Assembly: GCA_030700025.1 (NCBI GenBank)
Contig: JAUYKI010000015.1
Coordinates: forward strand, 28,623 to 92,622
Direction of reading: 5' to 3'
From: a bacterium
GTDB lineage: Bacteria; Patescibacteriota; Minisyncoccia; UBA6257; 02-FULL-45-10c
Length of the DNA: 64,000 bases
Part shown: positions 16,017 to 59,796 of the stretch, in pieces
Layout of the letters: the number at the start of each line of letters is the position of its first letter
How positions within the stretch are numbered: position 1 is the stretch's first letter
Notes under the pieces: generated by a model
The model's input: the letters and a program-made list of their open reading frames with translations, nothing else
The model's database searches: none
What the model was told of the DNA's origin: nothing
Translations under genes and position numbers: made by a program

Positions 16017-17726
16017 TTAACGCTGACGCTTTTTAACAATGTAAGAATCGTCTTCAAAAACTATTTCACCGGGCACTTGTTTATAAATAAGATCTTTATC
16101 TTTCTGGTAATACACCAGGTAATCCACATGGTATTTCTCCAAATAATGATTAAATTCAACCGGGTCCGGATTAAGCCGTTTGGCGCGAATCGGCCCGAAA
16201 TCATATGGGGTATATTCCAGCAGGGTAGCGGGCGTAAAATCCCGGCCTAAAATCTTGGCTTTAATTTTATTTATAACATTATCTTTTTGCAATGCGGAAT
16301 TAAAAGCTTGGCCGAAAACCCGCGTCTGCTGTTGCTCAAGATTATCAGTAATATATTGATAAGTAACGTCCCAATAAATATAGCGGTCTAGCAATTCTTC
16401 CGTCGGCATCAGTTGCAATTCTTGGCTCGGATGAAAATATAAATAATTATTCGTTAATAAATTAATGTCGTTTCCCAGATCCTTCGGGGCATACACCACT
16501 TTATCGCGAATTTGATTCGCCAAAAACCAGTCCACGACCGCATCCGCCCGGCCGCCGACATAAGTTTCTGCGGTGGCCGGATTGTTTATTTGCGGATCGC
16601 TGATAATTAAATAAGCCTTATTAGCTGCCATCCCAACCGCTACTAAAATAAAAATGGCGGTGGCGATTTTTTTATAGGAGCCGAAATAATTGCTTACGAT
16701 AAAAACTATACCGCCCCAAAAAGCAACAAAAAAGAACAAAAGGGTGGGCAAATAATGCGAATTAAATTCTAGCTGCATTCCGGTAATTATCTGCTGATTA
16801 AGAACCATTAGTCCGGCAACCAGCCCCATGGCAATCTTATCTAAAGTCCCTTCGGTAACTGCCTTCATATCTAGTTTCGGAAAAATATATTTTCGTAATA
16901 CAAAAAAGGCTATTAATGAAGCAATTAAAAAGGCCTGAGTATATAAACCGGCCGGCCAACGGCTATATAAAGCGCCGATCCGAACCATGCTTTCTTTGTA
17001 ATAAGCTAACTGGCTGATCTGCAACAGGTGGATAACATACCAGGAAGCCACGCCGGCAATAATTAAATATTTATACAAGTATTTCCAAATAATTTTTCTT
17101 GCCTGCCAAAACATCCAGCAATCGCTGGCCGCTAAAAGCGCCAAGGCGAAAGTCCAATAATATGGATAAACATAAAATAGCGATCCGGCCAAAACAGCCA
17201 ATCCGATTTCTCGTTTCCAAAATTTTAAATTCGAAAAATAAAAAATAAAAAATAATGCTAATGGAATAAAGTTTATCTCGGGGCTCAAGGTTCGGCCCCA
17301 ATCCAGCCGAGGAATAAAAATATAGGCGGCAGCGGCTAAATAACCGAAATAATGAAAATTAAAAATTACCAAAAACGCGTTTATTAAAAGCGCCATAATT
17401 ACAAAGACCGCCAAATAGCCGGTGATTAAGGCGTAAAATTTTACATCCAGTCCCAATGCGCTTTTAAATAGCCCGGCGGCATGAATGTTTAAAGCCGGAT
17501 ACAAATACGGCTGATAACGCCACTCGGAAAGATACGGGCTGCCCAATTGCCAATTGCCCTTAGAGCTCTCATTAATCAATGATAGATAATAATTAAATCC
17601 GCTGACCTGCTTGGTATTCAAATAATTATCAAAAACAATAGCCTGGGTAAGGTCAAGCTGAATTATGACCGTAAACAAAAGGCTTAAAATCAATATAGTA
17701 TAAATGGATTTTGTTGGGGGGGGCAT
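16017..17726 (-). CDS. Polytopic membrane protein with a C-terminal extracytoplasmic domain (putative GT-C-like glycosyltransferase)
   Basis: About 12 hydrophobic helices plus a C-terminal domain of about 170 aa. A C8 tract lies at codons 2–4 (MPPPT). Confidence 0.45.
   Translation of the reverse strand: MPPPTKSIYTILILSLLFTVIIQLDLTQAIVFDNYLNTKQVSGFNYYLSLINESSKGNWQLGSPYLSEWRYQPYLYPALNIHAAGLFKSALGLDVKFYALITGYLAVFVIMALLINAFLVIFNFHYFGYLAAAAYIFIPRLDWGRTLSPEINFIPLALFFIFYFSNLKFWKREIGLAVLAGSLFYVYPYYWTFALALLAASDCWMFWQARKIIWKYLYKYLIIAGVASWYVIHLLQISQLAYYKESMVRIGALYSRWPAGLYTQAFLIASLIAFFVLRKYIFPKLDMKAVTEGTLDKIAMGLVAGLMVLNQQIITGMQLEFNSHYLPTLLFFFVAFWGGIVFIVSNYFGSYKKIATAIFILVAVGMAANKAYLIISDPQINNPATAETYVGGRADAVVDWFLANQIRDKVVYAPKDLGNDINLLTNNYLYFHPSQELQLMPTEELLDRYIYWDVTYQYITDNLEQQQTRVFGQAFNSALQKDNVINKIKAKILGRDFTPATLLEYTPYDFGPIRAKRLNPDPVEFNHYLEKYHVDYLVYYQKDKDLIYKQVPGEIVFEDDSYIVKKRQR
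17716..17723. repeat. Homopolymeric G8 (C8 on the coding strand) tract at codons 2–4 of the membrane protein gene
   Basis: Counted directly: gttGGGGGGGGcat. Confidence 0.9.
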
Positions 17727-52848: not shown

Positions 52849-53595
52849 CTATTGCGTTACTGTGGCATCATCGTCGTCCACTTTCGGAACTCCTTTCAAT
52901 AACCGGTTAGCCTCTACCACTGCCTTGTGAGCAGTTTGAACCAATTCCTTCACGGCCTTTAAATCTTTATTTAAAGTATTCCGTACTTCGCTTACTACGG
53001 ACCGCAATTGGTCCTCGGTCGTCACATTAATCGGATAAGTCTTGGCGAGCTGGGCCTGTAAAGCAACGCGCGCCGCGGCAATCGCGGTTTTCGCTTTTTC
53101 TACGGTCGTCCTAACCACCGTAACATCCGCACCGCGGGTAGCGGCCTTATCCGCCCGCGCGCTGACTTTAGTTAAAGCATTTTCAATGCGAGTTACCATA
53201 GCCAGCCAGTGATTGGTCAACTTCTGATTAAGTTCGGTAAAGCGATTATCTAGCCGTTCTACGACTTCTTTTTTCTTGACATCTTTAATTTTCTCTAACC
53301 GGACTTTTAATTCGGCTTGTTCAGCTTTGCGCCGGGTTTCAAATTGATCCTTCGCCGACTCCAGCCGGACTTTAAAATCTTCCCGTAATTTTTCTACTTG
53401 CGCCTTCCGGTCCGCTTCCAACGTCCGCAAGGATTCCTTAAAGTCAGTCACTGCGGCTTTCCGTTCAGTTTGGAAAGTTTCCTGCGCTTCTCGAATCTTC
53501 GTTGGCACGGCTGTTTCCGCGCCGGTCTGCGCGAATGCCGCTGACCCGCTGGCGACTAGAAAAGCTACCATACTATTAATAATAATTTTATTCAT
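52849..53595 (-). CDS. Secreted alpha-helical / coiled-coil K/E-rich protein
   Basis: Signal peptide MVAFLVASGSAAFA, then repetitive K/E/R-rich helical sequence. Confidence 0.45.
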   Translation of the reverse strand: MNKIIINSMVAFLVASGSAAFAQTGAETAVPTKIREAQETFQTERKAAVTDFKESLRTLEADRKAQVEKLREDFKVRLESAKDQFETRRKAEQAELKVRLEKIKDVKKKEVVERLDNRFTELNQKLTNHWLAMVTRIENALTKVSARADKAATRGADVTVVRTTVEKAKTAIAAARVALQAQLAKTYPINVTTEDQLRSVVSEVRNTLNKDLKAVKELVQTAHKAVVEANRLLKGVPKVDDDDATVTQ

Positions 53596-53609
53596 ACTAA
53601 TTTTAGTTC

Positions 53610-54863
53610 TTAATTAGACGACTTTAATATAAAGTATAACACATCCGATAATTTTTCAGTATCTTTTTTACTCGTTCCCCGGCCGAAAGTAATCCGCAAT
53701 CCGGCGCTGGCCCGCTGGTCCGAATAGCCCAAAGCTTTTAAAACATGCGATGGCTTGCAAATCCGGGCGGCGCAAGCCGCGCCCGGGGAAACCGCGAATC
53801 CTGCCAAATCCAGCTTGATAATTAAATCCTGGGCCGTTTCTTGGCCGGGAAAATATAAATTAACATTATTCGGCAAACGCCTTTCTAAATCCCCGTTTAA
53901 TTCTGCTTTGGGCAAAATAGTTTTAATCCGGTTCAAAAAATATTTTTGTAAATCCCTTAATCGCTTGGCTTCTTTGGCCCGATCCCTATCGGCAATTTCC
54001 ATAGCCTTGGCAAAGCCAATAATGCCGGGAACATTCTCTGTTCCTCCGCGCAATCCCGATTCCTGTCCGCCGCCGGTAATCAGCGGTTGTACCGCTGAAA
54101 AATCCGAAATTCGAATATCGAAATTCGAAATGTTTTGAGTTTTAGATTTTGAATTTTGAATTTGTTTGTGATTTGTGATTTGGAATTTGGAATTTTTCCT
54201 GACATAGAGAAGCCCAACTCCTTTGGGCCCGTAAATTTTTTGAGAAGATAAAGTCATTAAATCTACTCCCAGCCGCTGAACATTGCAATCTAAATAATTA
54301 AATGCCTGGGCCGCGTCAGTATGAAAAAGCGGATATCCGCCGTTAGCCGCCTTGTTTTTCTTGAATTCCGAAATTATTTTGCTGATTTCCAGAATCGGCT
54401 GGATTGTTCCGACTTCATTATTGGCATACATTATGGAAACTAAAATAGTCCGGTCGTCCAAAGCAATTCGGAATTTTTTTAAATCCACAATTCCCTTTTT
54501 ATCTACCGGCAAATAAACCACTTCCACGCCATCCCTCTCCAGCTCTAAACAAGTTTCTAAAATTGATTCGTGTTCCACCGCGGAGATAATAATTTTCGGA
54601 CGGCTGATATTTTTAACCGCGCCCCGCAACGCCAAATTATTCGCCTCGGTCGCTCCGGAAGTAAAAACTATTTCTTTATAATGGCATCCTAAAATCTCCG
54701 CGGCCTTCTGGCGGGCATTAAATACCGCCGCCGACGCTTCCTGGCCAAACCAATGCAAAGCCCCGGGATTGCCGTAGATTTTTCTAAAATACGGCCGCAT
54801 GGCTTTCTCCGCCCGCGGATCCACGGGTGTCGCCGCCGCGTAATCAAAGTAATGTCTGCGCAT
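53610..54863 (-). CDS. Cysteine desulfurase (IscS/NifS family, class V aminotransferase) carrying an inserted low-complexity loop of about 33 aa
   Basis: SSQKIYGPKGVGLLYVRK (PLP-lysine region) and AVSPGAACAARICKPSHVLKALG (catalytic Cys loop). The insert between YVRK and GGGQE is encoded entirely by a heptamer array. Confidence 0.8.
   Translation of the reverse strand: MRRHYFDYAAATPVDPRAEKAMRPYFRKIYGNPGALHWFGQEASAAVFNARQKAAEILGCHYKEIVFTSGATEANNLALRGAVKNISRPKIIISAVEHESILETCLELERDGVEVVYLPVDKKGIVDLKKFRIALDDRTILVSIMYANNEVGTIQPILEISKIISEFKKNKAANGGYPLFHTDAAQAFNYLDCNVQRLGVDLMTLSSQKIYGPKGVGLLYVRKNSKFQITNHKQIQNSKSKTQNISNFDIRISDFSAVQPLITGGGQESGLRGGTENVPGIIGFAKAMEIADRDRAKEAKRLRDLQKYFLNRIKTILPKAELNGDLERRLPNNVNLYFPGQETAQDLIIKLDLAGFAVSPGAACAARICKPSHVLKALGYSDQRASAGLRITFGRGTSKKDTEKLSDVLYFILKSSN
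54097..54201. repeat. Array of about 15 phased heptanucleotide units (sub-families TCGAAAT, RTTTTGA, TGTGATT, TGGAATT), 105 nt in total, encoding a 35-aa insertion in the cysteine desulfurase
   Basis: Units parsed directly. The 7-nt phase is kept across all sub-families. The translation is KNSKFQITNHKQIQNSKSKTQNISNFDIRISDFS. Confidence 0.85.
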
Positions 54864-54867
54864 AATT

Positions 54868-55929
54868 TTATTGTAACTCATTCAATTGTTTTTGGATTTT
54901 ATATCCTTGGCAATGTTTTAACAAGCCCAAATAAGATTGTAAATTTTTGCCATTAATTTTTCTCAATAACCTTCTTTTTGTCTTAGTTCTTAAAATTCTA
55001 TAGTGGGGTCTTGCGATATATCCTAAAAAATCAATTCCTTGGGAAAATTTCCGAATAATTATCTTATTCGGATGTAGGGTTAAATTTAAATTATCCGCTA
55101 AAAACTTGCTTACTTTATCTGTAATTCCTATAAAATTCTCTTTTGTATCGCTTAAAACAACAAAGTCGTCGCAATAACGGAGATAATGTTTAATTTTTAA
55201 TTTATGCTTAATAAATTGGTCCAATTCATTTAAATAGATGTTGGCAAAAAGCTGGCTGGTTACGTTGCCAAGTGGCAATCCTTTGTCCGGATTTTTTTCA
55301 AAACTTTTTATAACTTTTTCAATAAGCCAAATGTCTTTTGGGTCAAAAATTTTCTTTTTGATTAAATTCAATAAAATTTGCTGGTCAATAGAATCAAAAA
55401 ACTTACTGATATCGCACTTTAAAACAAAAACCGGCTTGCAGTAATTCTTGCTCAATTTCCGAAGAAAAATTCCTAACCGTTCTACCGCGATATGCGTCCC
55501 CTTGCCCAGCCGCGATGAATCAGAATCGTAAATAAAACCCTTATCAAAAATCACGTATAAAATCCGAAAAATTGCTTGGTGCAAGACCCGGTCTCGGACG
55601 CTGGCTTTATGAATATGCCGCAATTTCGGGTCTTGAACATAAAAAGCTGTGTATAAATCAGGTTTGTAAATTTTATCCTTTAATTCCTGATGAAGTTGAA
55701 ATAAATTGTCTTCCAGATTAAACTCAAATTGCTGAACGTCCGATTTTTTCCTTTTTCCGCGCCGGAATTCTTTCCACGCTAAAAATAAATTTTCCAGCGA
55801 AATTATCCGTTCAAAAATATTATGACTTTTAATACCCCCCCCCCTCCAAATTTGCCTCTGATTCATAAGCTTGATGAATTCTATCGCAATATCTATCTGC
55901 TCGGCAAGCAAATTCCGAAACGGGATCAT
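54868..55929 (-). CDS. Diversity-generating retroelement (DGR) reverse transcriptase
   Basis: RT motifs 1–7 are present. These include DISKFFDSID and the DGR-type motif 4 GLPLGNVTSQLFANIYL (I/LGxxxSQ where other RTs have QGxxxSP). Also present are YLRYCDDFVV (YxDD) and LHPNKIIIRKFSQGIDFLGY. Similarity is closest to Bordetella phage bRT as recalled from memory. The true start is probably internal (about 55866) or near the G10 tract. Confidence 0.9.
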   Translation of the reverse strand: MIPFRNLLAEQIDIAIEFIKLMNQRQIWRGGGIKSHNIFERIISLENLFLAWKEFRRGKRKKSDVQQFEFNLEDNLFQLHQELKDKIYKPDLYTAFYVQDPKLRHIHKASVRDRVLHQAIFRILYVIFDKGFIYDSDSSRLGKGTHIAVERLGIFLRKLSKNYCKPVFVLKCDISKFFDSIDQQILLNLIKKKIFDPKDIWLIEKVIKSFEKNPDKGLPLGNVTSQLFANIYLNELDQFIKHKLKIKHYLRYCDDFVVLSDTKENFIGITDKVSKFLADNLNLTLHPNKIIIRKFSQGIDFLGYIARPHYRILRTKTKRRLLRKINGKNLQSYLGLLKHCQGYKIQKQLNELQ

Positions 55930-56181
55930 TTTGGAATTTTTTTGAAAATTGAAAATGTTTTACTAGATGTTCTCGAATTGATTATTACTGCTTCCCTAGA
56001 AACTAAAATTAATAAAATTTCGCCGTTGAATTCTGCTCGGATTAAAATAGAAATCCTAAAACGGCTGATTAGATTGATACAGGAATTTAAAATCATTGAA
56101 GCGAATAAATATCTTACGTTAGAAAAAGACCTTCAAGAAATTTCCAAAATGATCAACGGCTGGATTAAATACTTAAAATAA
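55822..56181 (+). CDS. DGR accessory variability determinant (Avd-like four-helix-bundle protein)
   Basis: 119 aa. LIHKLDEFYRNIYLLGKQIPKRDHFGIFLKIENVLLDVLELIITA aligns with Bordetella bAvd LIVERYERVISYLYPIAQSIPRKHGVAREMFLKCLLGQVELFIVA. The C-terminal EISKMINGWIKYLK aligns with EVGRILGSWIARV. The bAvd sequence is recalled from memory. The ORF is on the opposite strand to the RT and target. Confidence 0.65.
   Translation: MTFNTPPPPNLPLIHKLDEFYRNIYLLGKQIPKRDHFGIFLKIENVLLDVLELIITASLETKINKISPLNSARIKIEILKRLIRLIQEFKIIEANKYLTLEKDLQEISKMINGWIKYLK
55836..55845. repeat. Homopolymeric C10 (G10 on the RT strand) tract in the region shared by the 5' ends of the RT and Avd ORFs
   Basis: Counted directly. 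It encodes PPPP in Avd and RGGG in the RT ORF. Confidence 0.9.
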
Positions 56182-56204
56182 ATAACTCCGATTAAGGAGT
56201 TATT
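56181..56204. other. 9-bp stem hairpin (aataactcc-GATTAA-ggagttatt) between the Avd stop and the TR
   Basis: Read directly. Confidence 0.4.
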
Positions 56205-56208
56205 TATA

Positions 56209-56336
56209 GAAACTTCTGCGCGAGTCCGCAAATTACCATTGGCGTTGTCCGGATTGTACCAGTTGACCTTGAGCTTGCGATTGATCGGATTCCAATTCAC
56301 GTTCGGCACGTTGCCATTAGGATTGCGCGAACCAGC
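56209..56336 (-). other. DGR template repeat (TR), 128 nt, coding-sense on the minus strand
   Basis: Co-oriented near-identical copy of the VR. All 24 TR/VR differences sit at TR adenines. In the target frame it encodes AGSRNPNGNVPNVNWNPINRKLKVNWYNPDNANGNLRTRAEVS, with 13 AAY codons. Confidence 0.85.
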
Positions 56337-56553
56337 TTTTGCTTGTCTCCTGCTATATCACCGATAATCTTATAACAAAATTATCTGAGTTTTCCGGACA
56401 CACCGGATTTATTTTTGTAGCATTCACCAACGGCGAAACCTACACCAAAAACAAGCAAGCAGTTTCTGTTATTTGTGGTAAATCACTATCCGCCGTAGGC
56501 GGACTGATTATATTAACCGTAATTAGAATAAATCAATTTTGACCAAAAGAAAA

Positions 56554-56580
56554 TCCCCAGTCGCCTTTGGCGACTGGGGA
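56554..56580 (-). terminator. 12-bp GC-rich hairpin (tccccagtcgcc-TTT-ggcgactgggga) followed by a T-run on the minus strand, about 30 nt after the target stop
   Basis: Read directly. It could be the target-gene terminator, the DGR structure downstream of the VR, or both. Confidence 0.6.
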
Positions 56581-56609
56581 TTAAGGGTTCAAGTCAAAAG
56601 ATTCAAGGG

Positions 56610-57347
56610 TTAAACAGAAACTACTGCGCGAGCCCGCAAATCACCACTGGCGCTGCCCGGACCGTACCAGCCGACCCCGAGCCAGCGACCGATCGGACCC
56701 CAATCCACGCACGGCACGCTGCCATCAGGATAGCGCGAACCAGCGCAAAGTGTCCAATTCTTTTCATCCAGGTGTTTATTAGTTTCCAGGAAATACTTGA
56801 GTTCCAGGAGCAGACGCTCTTCCAGGGCGATGCCATTGATTTGCTCTTTGGCCAAGTCATTGGCTGACTTGTTCTTGAGCTCTTCGTCGGCTTCCTGGCG
56901 GTCTCTGACCCAGATGGCGTAGGTTTCGCCGGTGTTTCGGACCGAAGTGATGGAATTGAGATTGTTCGTGCAGGTCCAAACGCTCATGTGTTTCCTTAGG
57001 ACTTGGACAATCTGATTGAGGGTCAATCCCTTGGCAACGACAATCAACCAATCAATGCCCGGAACACGCTTTGGGGGCTGGATTTTTGAGATATCCAGCT
57101 CAATGCCAAATTCCTGGCGGTAGAGGGTTTGCCAGGCGCGAAGCATTGCTCGCACACTCTGGCCGGGTCGGGTCTGCTTTTCTTTGATGACAGAAGCTGT
57201 TGCTTCCGCGAAATTCGGATTCTCCTTAATTCGCTGAAGCGCCCCGGACACCTGATCCGGATCGCGCTTGCCATCCCGCACCAGCTCCAGCACCGTAGTC
57301 ACCAAATCCAGCAGCCGCGCTTTCTTTCGTTCGGTTCTTGCGAACAT
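56610..57347 (-). CDS. DGR target (variable) protein. The N-terminal region is uncharacterised. The C-terminal region ends in the VR and may be C-type-lectin/FGE-like.
   Basis: The C-terminus is ...NWTLCAGSRYPDGSVPCVDWGPIGRWLGVGWYGPGSASGDLRARAVVSV. The start was set at ATG 57347 (MFARTERKK), preceded by AAGGAG. The gene is markedly GC-richer than the neighbouring RT and Avd. Confidence 0.8.
   Translation of the reverse strand: MFARTERKKARLLDLVTTVLELVRDGKRDPDQVSGALQRIKENPNFAEATASVIKEKQTRPGQSVRAMLRAWQTLYRQEFGIELDISKIQPPKRVPGIDWLIVVAKGLTLNQIVQVLRKHMSVWTCTNNLNSITSVRNTGETYAIWVRDRQEADEELKNKSANDLAKEQINGIALEERLLLELKYFLETNKHLDEKNWTLCAGSRYPDGSVPCVDWGPIGRWLGVGWYGPGSASGDLRARAVVSV
56617..56744 (-). other. 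DGR variable repeat (VR) forming the last 43 codons of the target gene
   Basis: 104 of 128 positions are identical to the TR. All 24 mismatches are at TR adenines (A to G/T/C in the coding sense). It ends 5 nt before the stop. Confidence 0.85.
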
Positions 57348-57426
57348 TTTTGTTCTCCTTAGTTCTTTCACATCTGTCCAAATCCGGTTATCGCGGATTG
57401 GTATCTGATTTTGAAAGAACGTTCCT

Positions 57427-57455
57427 ATTATAATTCAATTTTTTATTCTTGTCAA
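57427..57455 (-). promoter_or_regulatory. Consensus sigma-70 promoter (TTGACA-17-TATAAT) on the minus strand, driving the DGR target gene
   Basis: The plus strand reads attata at 57427–57432 and tgtcaa at 57450–57455, with a 17-nt spacer. Confidence 0.55.
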
Positions 57456-57474
57456 GCAATAAATTGGGGGCTTT

Positions 57475-57628
57475 AAAACACAAAATCCTCTTGTTTCTGA
57501 TACCCGCGCAGCCGCTTTGCCCTGGTCCAATCGTTATGGGCGGAGCCACGATTGGCAAAGCGAGCGAGCACAAGAGAGTCCGCGGTGGCGGACGAACGGG
57601 TTGAGGGAATAAGAGGATTTTGTGTTTT
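57475..57628. repeat. GC-rich element of about 118 bp bounded by a perfect 18-bp inverted repeat (aaaacacaaaatcctctt / aagaggattttgtgtttt), lying between two divergent promoters
   Basis: Read directly. The interior has further stem-forming segments (gctttgcc/ggcaaagc, ccaatcg/cgattgg). Confidence 0.5.
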
Positions 57629-57649
57629 TTAAATTATTAAAAACTTTCT

Positions 57650-57678
57650 TTGACAAAAGTTAATTAAAAGCGTAAATT
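57650..57678 (+). promoter_or_regulatory. Consensus-like sigma-70 promoter (TTGACA-17-TAAATT) upstream of 57689..58186
   Basis: Read directly. The -10 hexamer ends 10 nt before the ATG. Confidence 0.5.
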
Positions 57679-57688
57679 ATAAGACATT

Positions 57689-58186
57689 ATGACCGAGCCA
57701 ATGCTTTTTAACAGCTCCTTCGGCCTGAAGCTGGATCCTTTTCAAATCGTTAAGGCGATTTCTGATTTTATCAACTCCGACCCTAAGCGGGAATATAAAA
57801 TTACCGTGGGCACCGATTCCCAAAAACGGCAGGACAACAAAGCGGATTTCGTTACCGCCATTGTCGTCCATCGGGTTGGCTATGGCGGACGCTATTTCTG
57901 GCGGCACATGGAAATCGCCAAATCTTACACGCTAAGGGACAGAATGTGGCAAGAAGTGCTTACTTCTTTGGACATCAGCAAAGAATTAGTGGTGCTTTTA
58001 AAAAATGCCGGACTGGAAAAATATAATTTTGAAATTCATGTGGATATCGGCGAAAAAGGCGAAACTAAATCTATGATTCAAGAACTGACCGGCATGATCC
58101 GCGCGCACAACTTTGAAGCCCGGACCAAGCCGGACAGCTATGCCGCCTCCAAAGTCGCCGACCGGCATGTTCATATTTATGACTAA
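57689..58186 (+). CDS. YkuK-like (DUF458) RNase-H-fold protein
   Basis: ITVGTDSQ...ADFVTAIVVHRVGYGGRYFW...EIHVDIGEKGETKSMIQELTGMI...AASKVADRH is colinear with Bacillus YkuK as recalled from memory. Confidence 0.6.
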   Translation: MTEPMLFNSSFGLKLDPFQIVKAISDFINSDPKREYKITVGTDSQKRQDNKADFVTAIVVHRVGYGGRYFWRHMEIAKSYTLRDRMWQEVLTSLDISKELVVLLKNAGLEKYNFEIHVDIGEKGETKSMIQELTGMIRAHNFEARTKPDSYAASKVADRHVHIYD

Positions 58187-58211
58187 TCGCTAACCACTAA
58201 TTACTAAATCA

Positions 58212-58778
58212 ATGGATAAATTAGTCTTAGACATAGAAACTAAAAATACTTTTGCCGAAGTCGGCGGGCAAGAAAACATCCACAAATTGGAGGTATCTTT
58301 TGTCGGCGTTTATTCTTACAACCAAAACCAATATTTTTCTTTTTTTGAAAATGAATTGGATAAGCTGGGCCCAATGCTCCAAAGCGCCGGCTTAATAATC
58401 GGATTCTGTTCTAACCGCTTTGACCTGCCGGTTTTAAAAAAACATTACAAATTTAATATCATGTCTCTGGAAAGCCTGGATATTTTGGAAGAAATTGAGG
58501 AAAGGCTCGGCCACCGGATCAGCCTAAACGAATTGGCCTACGCCAATTTGAGAACCCAAAAAACCGCCCACGGATTGGAAGCGATTAAATTTTATAAAGA
58601 AGGCCGGCTGGAAGAATTAAAAAAATATTGCCTGAACGACGTAAAAATCACCAAAGACCTTTATGACCTGGGAATGTCCCAGGGTCACTTAGTCGTTCCC
58701 CAAAGAACTACCGGCGAAATGCAAAAAGTGGAATTTGACTGGCATACCCGATTGCCTTCGGCGTCTACCCTATTTTAA
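58212..58778 (+). CDS. Predicted 3'-5' exonuclease (RNase-H-like / DEDD-type, YprB/PolB-exo-like)
   Basis: N-terminal LVLDIETKNTF (Exo I-like DxE), with later acidic motifs. Confidence 0.4.
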   Translation: MDKLVLDIETKNTFAEVGGQENIHKLEVSFVGVYSYNQNQYFSFFENELDKLGPMLQSAGLIIGFCSNRFDLPVLKKHYKFNIMSLESLDILEEIEERLGHRISLNELAYANLRTQKTAHGLEAIKFYKEGRLEELKKYCLNDVKITKDLYDLGMSQGHLVVPQRTTGEMQKVEFDWHTRLPSASTLF

Positions 58779-59796
58779 AACGCTTTATCCGTTTTAGCTC
58801 CTGATTCAGGAGTTTTTTATTTTTCGCTTCTATATTGATTCTTAAAAGCGGTTCGGTATTGGAAGCTCTAATATTAAACCAGTGGTCCGGAAACTCTGCC
58901 GTTAAGCCATCTAACTTAGAAATTTTCGCTTTTTGTTTTTTATAATATTGTTCTACTCTTTCCAAACTTTTAACTTTTAACTTTTCGCTTTTAACTTTAA
59001 GGTTGATTTCCCCGCTCCGGTAATACTTCGGCGATTTGTCCAGATATTCAGAAACTGGAATGTTTAATTTAGAAACAAAATTTATAATATGAATTGCCGC
59101 TAAAATACCCGAGTCCCAGACCGTGTCTGGTCCGCCTCTGGCGGAAAAATCTGGAAATCCAAAATAATAATGGCCGGAATGTTCCAGGCCCAGCGGAATC
59201 TTTTTCTCCCGCATCAGCTTTTTGAAAAAATAATGGCCGACGCGTGAAACGCTAACTTTTGACTTATAACCATTAACTATTAACTTTCTAATAAGTTGAC
59301 CGGAGATAACGCTGACGATATAAGATTTTGGCTTTAGCTCTTGCAGTAATAAATAACCGGTTTCGTCCGGACTGATTACTCTGCCCAAATTGTCTACCAA
59401 AAACATTCTGTCGCCGTCGGCGTCAAAAATCACGCCCAAGTCCGCGTGGTGTTTTAATACGGCTTTTTGTAGTTGGCTAATCGCTCCCGGCGCCAGCGGA
59501 TTCGGCCCATGCCCGGGAAAATGACCGTCGGGTTTATCGTTGATAAAAACAATTGACAATTGACAATTAACAATTAACTTCCGGAAAAGTTCTTTTAGAA
59601 CTTTTCCGGTTGTGCCGTTGGAACAATCAAAAACTATTTTTAACGGCTTGCCCTGAGCCTGCTTGCCCCGCTGTGGCGGTGGTCGAAGGAGTCTTAAAAA
59701 TCGTTTTAAATACTTAACGTATAAACCCGCGTAATCCATATGATTATTATACAGAAAATAAAAAACTCCGCGCATTACGGAGTTAGGCATAGCCAC
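58765..59796 (-). CDS. Phosphohexomutase (phosphomannomutase/phosphoglucomutase) C-terminal fragment, domains II–IV
   Basis: FDCSNGTTG, FDADGDR (Mg2+ loop), GLEHSGHYYF (sugar-binding loop) and RASNTEP (phosphate-binding loop). Its likely independent start is MDYAGLYVKYLK at about 59738, preceded by TATAAT. Contains three heptamer arrays. Confidence 0.7.
   Translation of the reverse strand: MAMPNSVMRGVFYFLYNNHMDYAGLYVKYLKRFLRLLRPPPQRGKQAQGKPLKIVFDCSNGTTGKVLKELFRKLIVNCQLSIVFINDKPDGHFPGHGPNPLAPGAISQLQKAVLKHHADLGVIFDADGDRMFLVDNLGRVISPDETGYLLLQELKPKSYIVSVISGQLIRKLIVNGYKSKVSVSRVGHYFFKKLMREKKIPLGLEHSGHYYFGFPDFSARGGPDTVWDSGILAAIHIINFVSKLNIPVSEYLDKSPKYYRSGEINLKVKSEKLKVKSLERVEQYYKKQKAKISKLDGLTAEFPDHWFNIRASNTEPLLRINIEAKNKKLLNQELKRIKRFKIG
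58965..58999. repeat. Heptanucleotide tandem array (AACTTTT)x3 plus 2 degenerate units in the phosphohexomutase coding sequence, encoding KVKSEKLKVKS
   Basis: Read directly; translation confirmed. Confidence 0.85.
59551..59578. repeat. Heptanucleotide tandem array (AATTGAC)x2(AATTAAC)x2 in the phosphohexomutase coding sequence, encoding VNCQLSIVF
   Basis: Read directly; translation confirmed. A further phased stretch lies at 59251–59292. Confidence 0.85.
59761..59784 (-). terminator. Hairpin (aactccg-TAATGCG-cggagtt) plus T-run on the minus strand, directly after the small ORF stop
   Basis: 7-bp stem followed by TTTTTTATTTT on the minus strand. Confidence 0.5.

What the first reader, a model, noticed from the sequence alone, without database searches (positions are those of the whole stretch)
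55822..55929. Avd-like ORF on the opposite strand to the RT, with overlapping 5' ends and a shared C10/G10 homopolymer
The Avd-like ORF (plus strand) and the RT ORF (minus strand) overlap by up to 108 nt at their 5' ends. The RT N-terminal extension (MIPFRNLLAEQIDIAIEFIKLMNQRQIWRGGG) is not conserved relative to bRT.

This suggests the true RT start lies at or just after the G10 tract; on the RT strand that tract reads GGAGGGGGGGGGG, which looks like a Shine-Dalgarno sequence. A 10-nt homopolymer is prone to slippage and could toggle RT and/or Avd expression.

The usual DGR arrangement is target–avd–TR–RT on one strand, so an antisense Avd is atypical.
Basis: partly seen in the sequence, partly recalled or inferred. 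Interest (0 to 1): 0.6.

Follow-up and report, generated by a model that had tools for sequence, protein, structure and literature searches.

The report
Slippery repeat gating a DGR's genes
In this candidate-phyla bacterium, a run of ten G/C bases lies inside the overlapping starts of the two genes that drive a targeted-mutation element, and related genomes show its length varies in nature, so it probably switches the mutator on and off.

Summary
The locus is a complete DGR.

The antisense avd is not unusual. It is published architecture B3, typical of CPR DGRs, and 64 of 65 related loci with an avd hit share it.

The RT most likely starts at Met22 (ATG 55866), upstream of the tract, not after it. 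That ATG is the complement of an in-frame Avd His codon, and Avd's ATG is the complement of an in-frame RT His codon. Both genes are therefore in frame only at the same tract lengths. G10 keeps both intact; G9 or G11 cuts both to 12-20 aa.

In 80 related loci, 48 of 52 G/C runs of 8 nt or more sit at this junction. Distant relatives have (GT)n, (GA)n or a pentanucleotide repeat there. Near-identical contigs differ only in tract length (G8/G9/G10; G11/G12). Repeat-free relatives nearly always have both ATGs in frame, while repeat-bearing ones mostly do not.

Best reading: a repeat-based phase-variation switch gating DGR activity. I found no published description. Switching and its effect on expression are inferred, not measured.

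The parts
56610..57371 (-). DGR target gene (253 aa; no family match) with the variable region at its C-terminus
   Evidence: ORF; contains the VR; no Pfam or NCBIfam hit
56616..56744 (-). Variable repeat (VR)
   Evidence: 129-nt direct repeat of the TR, 81% identical. All 24 core mismatches lie at TR adenines on the minus strand
56552..56582 (-). 14-bp perfect GC-rich hairpin just downstream of the VR and target stop codon (the DGR hairpin and/or a terminator)
   Evidence: Inverted repeat I14; terminator-like site with a T-rich tail. A weak sub-threshold Rfam NsiR1 hit here is taken as chance
56507..56536 (-). Promoter-like site upstream of the TR (candidate promoter of the template RNA); weak evidence
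   Evidence: TTGATT-18-TATAAT, 10 of 12 matches. The number of such sites in the region is not above the shuffle expectation
56208..56336 (-). Template repeat (TR); its sense strand is the minus strand, the same as the RT and target and antisense to avd
   Evidence: 24 of 35 TR adenines are substituted in the VR, with no other mismatch in the core
55822..56181 (+). avd (119 aa from ATG 55822). The conserved Avd core starts at residue 11-14, so the tract (codons 5-9, T-P-P-P-P) lies in an N-terminal leader
   Evidence: Pfam bAvd residues 14-117; NCBIfam Avd profile 1-104 matches residues 11-116
55835..55844 (.). C10/G10 homopolymer shared by both reading frames; the proposed slippage switch
   Evidence: conserved position in relatives; length polymorphism in related lineages; the effect of changing n is
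55822..55866 (.). 45-nt start-to-start overlap module: Avd ATG (55822-55824, complement of RT His36 codon) ... C10 ... CAT (55864-55866, Avd His15 codon, complement of RT Met22 ATG)
   Evidence: Read directly from the sequence. The same geometry without a repeat is seen in L095-L104
54868..55866 (-). DGR reverse transcriptase, 332 aa from Met22 (the maximal ORF extends to 55929)
   Evidence: RVT_1; NCBI's protein P0001 is 332 aa; homologue matches start at residues ~28-39; N-terminal comparisons
55878..55907 (-). Promoter-like site inside avd coding sequence that would start RT transcription about 5 nt upstream of ATG 55866; weak evidence
   Evidence: TTGCCG-18-TAGAAT, 9 of 12 matches; not above chance on its own

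Best explanation
The window holds a complete CPR-type DGR: target with VR, hairpin, TR, reversed avd, RT. The G10/C10 tract lies inside the overlapping N-terminal leaders of the divergent avd and RT genes.

Each gene's ATG is the reverse complement of an in-frame His codon of the other gene. The distance between the two start codons therefore sets the frame of both genes at once. When that distance is a multiple of three (45 nt here, with 10 G) both proteins are made. One base gained or lost by slipped-strand mispairing during replication frameshifts both, leaving peptides of 12-20 aa.

The tract is thus a contingency-locus type ON/OFF switch for the two trans-acting DGR proteins, and so for mutagenic retrohoming. 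A lineage would keep most cells with a fixed target-protein variant while a shifting minority diversifies it.

Shown: the anatomy, conservation of a repeat at this site, natural length polymorphism, and the in-silico frame consequences.

Inferred: the slippage rate, that out-of-frame alleles are truly silent, and that switching controls VR diversification.
For: 1. DGR identity: 24 of 24 TR/VR core mismatches are at TR adenines, and Avd and RT match their profiles.

2. Position-specific conservation of a slippery repeat, whatever its sequence. G7-G14 occurs in 50 loci, and (GT)n, (GA)n or a pentanucleotide repeat in 10 more, out of 77 evaluable. 48 of 52 G/C runs of 8 nt or more in 616 kb lie at this junction.

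3. Length polymorphism with identical flanks:
- G8, G9 and G10 in L113, L106-L111 and L112, with 0 mismatches over 2,355 and 1,318 bp.
- G8 against G9 in L105 and L006, with 1 mismatch in 3,051 bp.
- G11 against G12 in L093 and L094, with 0 mismatches in 4,751 bp.
- RT clusters at 90% identity or more contain N-termini in different frames around the Gly run, and GGG/GGGG variants.

4. Frame logic. In the window only n=10 (of 8-12) gives full-length Avd and RT. The tract lengths that put the RT ATG and the Avd ATG in frame agree or overlap in 36 of 41 loci.

5. Control. Repeat-free relatives have an in-frame ATG for the RT in 15 of 17 and for Avd in 14 of 14. Poly-G loci have 20 of 50 and 9 of 41; other-repeat loci have 8 of 10 and 2 of 10. 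Fisher tests give p=7e-8 for Avd and 6e-4 for RT. The Avd in-frame fraction, 11 of 51, is not significantly different from the one third expected for a drifting length (p=0.08).

6. Repeat-free lineage L095-L104 uses exactly these two ATGs with a 24-nt overlap. Avd-less relatives keep ATG + ~8 codons + G-tract + RT core, so the leader is not just a shadow of antisense Avd coding.

7. A lineage with G8-G11 alleles shows VR differences between samples, two of three at TR adenines, so its DGR is active.
Against: - No read-level data, so tract heterogeneity within a sample and the switching rate are unmeasured.
- The window's own lineage is represented by a single contig (P0001), so polymorphism is shown only in relatives.
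- Most assembled genomes are out of frame, with a skew to one G too many (RT: 21 need -1, 8 need +1, 8 are in frame, counting loci with a single solution).
- The Azambacteria lineage has G11 in more than 75 contigs (plus one G12 contig, L094) and no ATG-in-frame allele was seen. This could mean expression does not depend on DNA length there, for example through an alternative TTG start or recoding.
- In the window, an in-frame TTG at 55852 downstream of the tract could give an Avd with the whole conserved core, so Avd might escape the switch.
- All repeats are G-rich on the RT strand, which a purely DNA-level switch does not require.
- Some single length calls could be homopolymer assembly errors.
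Confidence: 0.6

Rival explanations
1. Programmed recoding. The tract is a site of transcriptional slippage or ribosomal frameshifting, so a fixed, low fraction of transcripts or translations yields full-length RT and Avd whatever the DNA length. The repeat sets dosage and is not an ON/OFF switch.
For: - Most consensus genomes are out of frame, with a skew to one extra G.
- The Azambacteria lineage is G11 in more than 75 contigs, with one G12 contig (L094), and no in-frame ATG allele was found.
- VR differences exist in a lineage whose majority allele (G9) is out of frame for the RT.
Against: - DNA-level length alleles, including in-frame ones, do coexist.
- From established knowledge, RNA polymerase slippage is best documented on A/T runs, not G/C runs.
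- Dinucleotide and pentanucleotide repeats at the same site are typical of DNA slippage, not of known recoding signals.
- This reading is not exclusive of the main explanation.
Confidence: 0.15
2. The tract lies in the 5' UTR or promoter. The G-run is the RT's Shine-Dalgarno sequence, or a spacer between divergent promoter elements whose length tunes transcription. The true starts lie beyond the tract on each side.
For: - GGAGG precedes the run in the window.
- In the (GT)n group the RT has its own GGAG + ATG downstream of the repeat.
- TTG or GTG codons just before Avd's conserved H-K exist in many loci.
- From my own knowledge, the Haemophilus hifA/hifB (TA)n repeat is a precedent for one repeat in overlapping divergent promoters.
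Against: - No canonical start lies between the tract and the conserved RT N-terminus in the window or in 39 of 50 poly-G loci.
- GGAGG is not conserved upstream of the run.
- Repeat-free relatives start both genes at the outer ATGs.
- Avd starts in repeat-free loci are at least 14 codons upstream of residue 20, further out than the inner TTG/GTG codons.
- Avd-less relatives keep the ATG plus leader.
Confidence: 0.1
3. No function. The tract is a neutral mutational hotspot or a sign of decay, and out-of-frame loci are DGRs on their way to becoming pseudogenes.
For: About 60-80% of repeat-bearing loci lack an in-frame ATG for the RT or for Avd.
Against: - A repeat is kept at the same spot across dozens of species-level genomes and in at least four different sequence forms.
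- G/C runs are enriched at the junction by roughly 1000-fold (48 in about 8 kb of junction sequence against 3 in about 608 kb; my estimate).
- The rest of the RT and avd ORFs are intact, so tblastn aligns them end to end.
- In-frame alleles coexist in the same lineages, and VRs are diversified.
Confidence: 0.1
4. Sequencing or assembly artefact. The homopolymer length differences, or the strand arrangement, are errors.
For: - Homopolymers are error-prone.
- One contig (L020) starts with a C50 artefact at this site, and L038 starts inside the run.
Against: - The tract and the divergent arrangement recur in genomes from many projects and assemblers.
- The same alleles are recovered repeatedly: G9 in six contigs; the in-frame Portnoybacteria RT N-terminus (cluster 3: P0060, P0182, P0185, P0186) on 18 contigs.
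- Alleles differ by up to 3 nt.
Confidence: 0.03

Closest known systems
DGR cassette architecture B3, TR-(avd)-RT (Wu et al. 2018, NAR, PMC5758913); CPR 'DGR clade 2' of Roux et al. 2021 (PMC8144416)
   Same: Same components and order: target/VR, TR, avd on the reverse strand, then RT. It is reported as 90% of the CPR DGR set. All related loci found here are Patescibacteria/CPR.
   Different: Those papers do not mention an overlap of the 5' ends, a repeat tract, frameshifts or any switch. Paul et al. 2017, the main CPR DGR paper, could not be read.
Intragenic poly-G/C contingency loci of Campylobacter jejuni, Neisseria and Haemophilus (translational phase variation by slipped-strand mispairing)
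   Same: A G/C run (G7-G14 here, mostly G9-G10) near the 5' end of a coding sequence in a low-GC genome. Length alleles occur among near-identical strains, and reading-frame ON/OFF logic applies. The C. jejuni parallel, G7+ tracts in 29 loci, is from the abstract of PMC4965091.
   Different: One tract is read on both strands by two overlapping divergent genes. What it gates is a retroelement mutator, not a surface structure or a restriction-modification enzyme. Switching has not been measured here.
Haemophilus influenzae hifA/hifB fimbrial switch: (TA)n in overlapping divergent promoters (recalled from my own knowledge, not checked here)
   Same: A single simple repeat placed between two divergently transcribed genes co-regulates both.
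   Different: There the repeat changes -10/-35 spacing and acts on transcription. Here, in the poly-G group, the repeat lies inside both reading frames and acts on translation frame. The (GT)n subgroup may be closer to the hif case for the RT.
Bordetella phage BPP-1 DGR (mtd-avd-TR-brt)
   Same: Avd plus RT plus TR/VR with adenine-specific mutagenesis and a hairpin after the VR. The RT N-terminus H-x-N-(L/I)-(F/I)... lies close to its start.
   Different: All genes are on one strand, avd lies upstream of the TR, and there is no repeat tract. The region downstream of the TR is a non-coding spacer, whereas here it is antisense avd.

Membership tests
Diversity-generating retroelement (DGR) | Reverse transcriptase of the DGR type next to the repeats | tested here: met
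   RVT_1 79.9 bits. More than 7,600 homologues, the closest named from Patescibacteria. The DGR-typical G-N-x-x-S-Q motif can be read in the translation (GNVTSQLFAN). No DGR-specific RT profile was available.
Diversity-generating retroelement (DGR) | TR/VR pair whose mismatches fall at TR adenines | tested here: met
   129-nt repeat. All 24 core mismatches are at TR adenines on the minus strand, affecting 24 of 35 adenines.
Diversity-generating retroelement (DGR) | VR at the 3' end of a protein-coding target gene, followed by a GC-rich hairpin | tested here: met
   The VR at 56616-56744 ends 6 nt before the stop of ORF 56610-57371. A 14-bp perfect hairpin lies at 56552-56582. The fold of the target (C-type lectin) was not tested.
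Diversity-generating retroelement (DGR) | Accessory protein Avd | tested here: met
   Pfam bAvd 61.7 bits against a cut-off of 40. NCBIfam DivGenRetAVD 68.5 bits, below its strict equivalog cut-off of 80.
DGR architecture B3 (TR-(avd)-RT) | avd on the strand opposite to the TR and RT, located between them | tested here: met
   Window coordinates. 64 of 65 related loci with an avd hit share it. The definition is in PMC5758913.
Simple-sequence-repeat phase-variable (contingency) locus | A simple repeat long enough to slip, located in the coding sequence or promoter | tested here: met
   C10/G10 lies within codons 5-9 of avd and codons 8-11 of the Met22 RT. A repeat is present at this position in 60 of 77 related loci.
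Simple-sequence-repeat phase-variable (contingency) locus | Repeat length varies among otherwise near-identical genomes | tested here: met
   Met for related lineages: G8/G9/G10, G8/G9 and G11/G12 with 0-1 mismatches in the flanks. Not testable for the window's own lineage, which has one contig.
Simple-sequence-repeat phase-variable (contingency) locus | Length change alters expression (frame or promoter spacing) | tested here: inconclusive
   In silico, a change of one base truncates both proteins, and repeat-bearing loci often lack in-frame ATGs while repeat-free loci do not. No expression data. Alternative starts or recoding are not excluded.
Simple-sequence-repeat phase-variable (contingency) locus | High-frequency, reversible switching within a clonal population, with a phenotype | not testable with these tools
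   This needs read-level tract distributions, cultures or reporters. CPR organisms are mostly uncultured.

The most novel reading that the evidence does not exclude
A large part of the CPR DGR clade carries a built-in hypermutable switch. One simple repeat is read on both strands inside the overlapping leaders of avd and the RT, and it turns the whole mutator on and off stochastically. Populations would alternate between diversifying a target protein and locking in a variant. That would be a second-order bet-hedging device (a contingency locus controlling a targeted hypermutator) that has not been described for any DGR.
Probability: 0.55. Interest if true: 0.85.

Novelty: new variant of a known kind. 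Interest (0 to 1): 0.72.

Why it matters
How DGR mutagenesis is regulated in cells is largely unknown. An always-on DGR would erode any useful variant it creates.

A conserved slippery repeat that frameshifts both DGR proteins together would be a simple genetic answer. [quoted passage not shown]

The idea can be tested directly on existing metagenomes by counting tract lengths in reads and linking them to VR diversity on long reads.

There are two practical consequences:
- Many CPR RT and avd genes are probably mis-annotated, with truncated or wrongly started calls (for example 324-aa against 357-aa calls from the same locus).
- DGR surveys that require intact ORFs may under-count these elements or label them inactive.

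A single repeat read in two overlapping divergent reading frames is also an unusual design for a phase-variation switch.

Tried and rejected
1. Exact-protein contig look-ups for the RTs P0077 and P0044. All contigs had the same tract length, but only because the called ORF spans the tract. I discarded these as a test of polymorphism.

2. A flank-anchored pattern scan of metagenome contigs for the Azambacteria lineage. It returned only two contigs.

The Avd cluster P0135 turned out to be a repeat-free lineage, so it was useless for polymorphism but useful as a control for the start codons.

4. Paul et al. 2017 (Nature Microbiology), the main CPR DGR paper, is not held. I cannot exclude that it mentions the tract.

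5. The Rfam scan of 53000-59000 gave only a sub-threshold NsiR1 hit on the VR hairpin, which I take as chance.

6. The promoter and terminator scan found no more promoter-like sites than shuffled sequence. I use the individual sites only as weak hints.

7. My first tract-finding script missed loci whose RT alignment started far upstream, including the window. Searches replaced it.

8. Rejected: assembly inversion, and the idea that the tract encodes a needed poly-Gly/poly-Pro linker. Other repeat types encode different peptides, and frames are often broken.

Full report
**1. What is in the window**

The ORFs are as described: a plus-strand ORF at 55822-56181 (119 aa) and a minus-strand ORF at 54868-55929 (353 aa), overlapping by 108 nt.
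- The plus ORF is Avd (Pfam bAvd, 61.7 bits against a cut-off of 40; NCBIfam Avd profile positions 1-104 on residues 11-116, 68.5 bits, below the strict cut-off of 80).
- The minus ORF is a reverse transcriptase (RVT_1).
- A 129-nt repeat pair links 56208-56336 (TR) with 56616-56744 (VR), which is the 3' end of a 253-aa minus-strand ORF.
- All 24 core mismatches are at TR adenines read on the minus strand, affecting 24 of 35 adenines.
- A perfect 14-bp hairpin follows the VR.

This is a complete DGR. Its template RNA, target and RT are on the minus strand, and avd lies between the TR and the RT on the plus strand.

The C10 run is at 55835-55844 and is the longest homopolymer in the 64 kb.

**2. 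The antisense avd is the norm for this clade**

A scan of one genome per species with the RT returned 80 loci, all Patescibacteria/CPR or unnamed MAGs.
- tblastn with the window's Avd finds avd head-to-head with the RT in 64 of 65 loci that have a hit. Only L068 has it on the same strand.
- A profile search adds L015, L017, L018 and L079 as divergent.
- Wu et al. 2018 already define this as architecture B3, TR-(avd)-RT, '90% of the CPR set' (PMC5758913).

So the arrangement is neither an inversion nor new.

**3. Where the genes start**

NCBI's protein for this RT (P0001) has 332 aa, so it starts at Met22, ATG 55866. Homologue matches begin at residues ~28-39.

Between the tract and the conserved H-N-I-F-E motif there is no ATG, GTG or TTG in the window, nor in 39 of 50 poly-G relatives. 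A start 'at or just after the tract' therefore lacks a start codon.

GGAGG before the run is specific to the window. Other loci have ATC, GTT, GTA, GCC and so on before the G-run.

The key geometry can be read directly from the sequence:
- Avd's His15 codon CAT (55864-55866) is the complement of the RT's Met22 ATG.
- The RT's His36 codon is the complement of Avd's ATG (55822-55824).
- The two starts are 45 nt apart with the tract between them, so both genes are in frame, or both out of frame, together.

Three observations support these ATGs:
- The repeat-free lineage L095-L104 reads ATG AGT GAG AGA AGC GAT AAA CAT. Both genes start at exactly these positions and overlap by 24 nt.
- Five relatives with no avd at all (TR directly upstream of the RT) still have ATG + ~8 codons + G-tract + RT core. 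The leader is therefore not merely a shadow of Avd coding.
- The N-terminus M-(N/H/R)-Q-(R/G)-x-(I/V)...GGG...H-N-I-F-E recurs in many database RTs of the clade.

A promoter-like site (TTGCCG-18-TAGAAT, ending at 55878) would start transcription about 5 nt before ATG 55866. This is weak evidence.

**4. The repeat is conserved in position, not in sequence**

In RT orientation, 50 of 77 evaluable loci have G7-G14 at this junction, mostly G9 (22 loci) and G10 (17 loci). Ten more have (GT)n, (GA)n or a TGTCC/CTGTC pentanucleotide repeat. Seventeen have none.

Across 615,921 bp of these loci there are 52 G/C runs of 8 nt or more. 48 are at the junction, all as G on the RT strand. One is a contig-edge artefact at that spot and three lie elsewhere.

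P0010 translates a (GA)n repeat in frame as M-N-K-R-Q-I-C-RERER-V-I-G-H.

In the (GT)n group the RT has its own GGAG + ATG after the repeat. Avd's ATG lies beyond it and must read through (AC)n.

**5. The length varies in nature**

Exact-protein look-ups are biased, so I used two other routes.

A flank-anchored pattern found two contigs of the Azambacteria lineage that are identical over 4,751 bp except for G11 against G12.

Members of RT clusters at 90% identity or more show N-termini that change frame at the Gly run, or have GGG against GGGG:
- MNQGNIEAV-GGG / -GGGG / KLS-GGG / truncated calls
- MRQRNIKPI-GGG against MLSPS-GGG

At the DNA level:

| Contigs | Tract | Flank differences |
|---|---|---|
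| L113 / L106-L111 / L112 | G8 / G9 / G10 | 0 mismatches over 2,355 bp (L113 vs L107) and 1,318 bp (each vs L112); L106 differs from L107 at 4 positions |
| L105 / L006 | G8 / G9 | 1 mismatch in 3,051 bp |

In-frame and out-of-frame alleles coexist, in different proportions in different lineages (contig counts).

In the lineage with G8-G11 alleles, three of the four differences between L106 and L107 lie in the VR, two of them at TR adenines. That DGR has therefore been active.

**6. Consequences for the reading frames**

In the window, only n=10 (of 8-12) gives Avd of 119 aa and RT of 332 aa. At n=9 or n=11 both stop after 12-20 aa.

Across loci, the tract lengths that bring the RT ATG and the Avd ATG into frame agree or overlap in 36 of 41 cases.

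| Junction type | RT in-frame ATG | Avd in-frame ATG |
|---|---|---|
| No repeat | 15/17 | 14/14 |
| Poly-G | 20/50 | 9/41 |
| Other repeats | 8/10 | 2/10 |

(Fisher p=6e-4 for RT and 7e-8 for Avd)

The Avd in-frame fraction, 11 of 51, is close to the one third expected if length drifts (p=0.08). The broken frames are thus caused by the repeat, not by my choice of start codons.

**7. Interpretation**

The best-supported reading is a simple-repeat phase-variation switch placed in the shared leaders of avd and the RT. It would turn the DGR machinery on or off by slipped-strand mispairing. The window is in the ON/ON state.

What is shown is the anatomy, the conservation, the polymorphism and the frame logic. 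Silencing of out-of-frame alleles, reversibility, rate and the effect on VR diversification are inferred.

Open points that favour rivals:
- Most consensus genomes are out of frame, with an excess of 'one G too many'. This may reflect shared ancestry.
- The Azambacteria lineage shows no in-frame ATG allele in more than 75 contigs, and its RT frame is open to an upstream TTG.
- In the window, a TTG at 55852 could give a complete Avd core independent of the tract.
- The repeats are always G-rich on the RT strand.

Transcriptional slippage or ribosomal frameshifting at the tract cannot be excluded and could act together with DNA-level variation.

**8. Comparison with what is known, and novelty**

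The DGR and its B3 architecture are known. Poly-G contingency loci are known.

Full-text searches combining DGR terms with homopolymer, poly-G tract, phase variation, slipped-strand, contingency or hypermutable found nothing relevant. Three DGR surveys do not mention it. Paul et al. 2017 could not be read.

I therefore rate this as a new variant of a known kind: a contingency-type repeat, read on both strands by two overlapping divergent genes, gating a retroelement mutator.

Noticed in passing
window 17716-17723 (ORF 16017-17726, minus strand): The only other G/C run of 8 nt or more in the window is a C8 run on the minus strand, directly after the ATG of a 569-aa ORF (ATG CCC CCC CCA...). The ORF has no Pfam match. 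It may be a second repeat-controlled gene in this genome.
   Followed up: partly
P0028, P0057, P0075; L095 1-535 and L096 1-790: Some RTs of this CPR DGR clade are fused to a uracil-DNA glycosylase domain (PF03167; 483-528 aa), or have a UDG ORF immediately downstream of the RT. I do not know of a reported UDG partner for DGRs.
   Followed up: no
L020 1-50; L038 1-5: Two contigs end exactly at the tract. L020 starts with 50 C where the G-run is expected, and L038 starts inside the G-run. This suggests assembly breaks or poly-G artefacts at this site.
   Followed up: no
L081-L086, L093, L094 (Azambacteria lineage): G11 occurs in more than 75 contigs (plus one G12), with no allele that puts the conserved ATG in frame. 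Instead the RT frame stays open to a TTG 26 codons upstream of the tract, giving a 378-aa call. The simple ON/OFF model does not explain this.
   Followed up: partly
junctions of L001-L080: All 48 homopolymers are G on the RT sense strand, and the other repeats, (GT)n, (GA)n and TGTCC, are also G-rich on that strand. Assembled lengths are skewed to one G more than the in-frame length. This could be shared ancestry or an RNA-level role. It remains unexplained.
   Followed up: partly
window 55924-55946 and 56132-56154: A 23-nt inverted repeat, 91% complementary, with arms near the two ends of avd. On the minus strand it would lie in the RNA downstream of the TR, where the Bordetella DGR RNA has a structured spacer.
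   Followed up: no
window 56393-56417 (+ strand): A terminator-like hairpin with a T-tail on the avd strand, located beyond the TR. If used, the avd mRNA would run antisense across the whole TR.
   Followed up: no
L047, L063 and similar repeat-free loci: The two start codons abut as the palindrome CATATG, leaving no intergenic DNA. Each gene's promoter must therefore lie inside the other gene.
   Followed up: no
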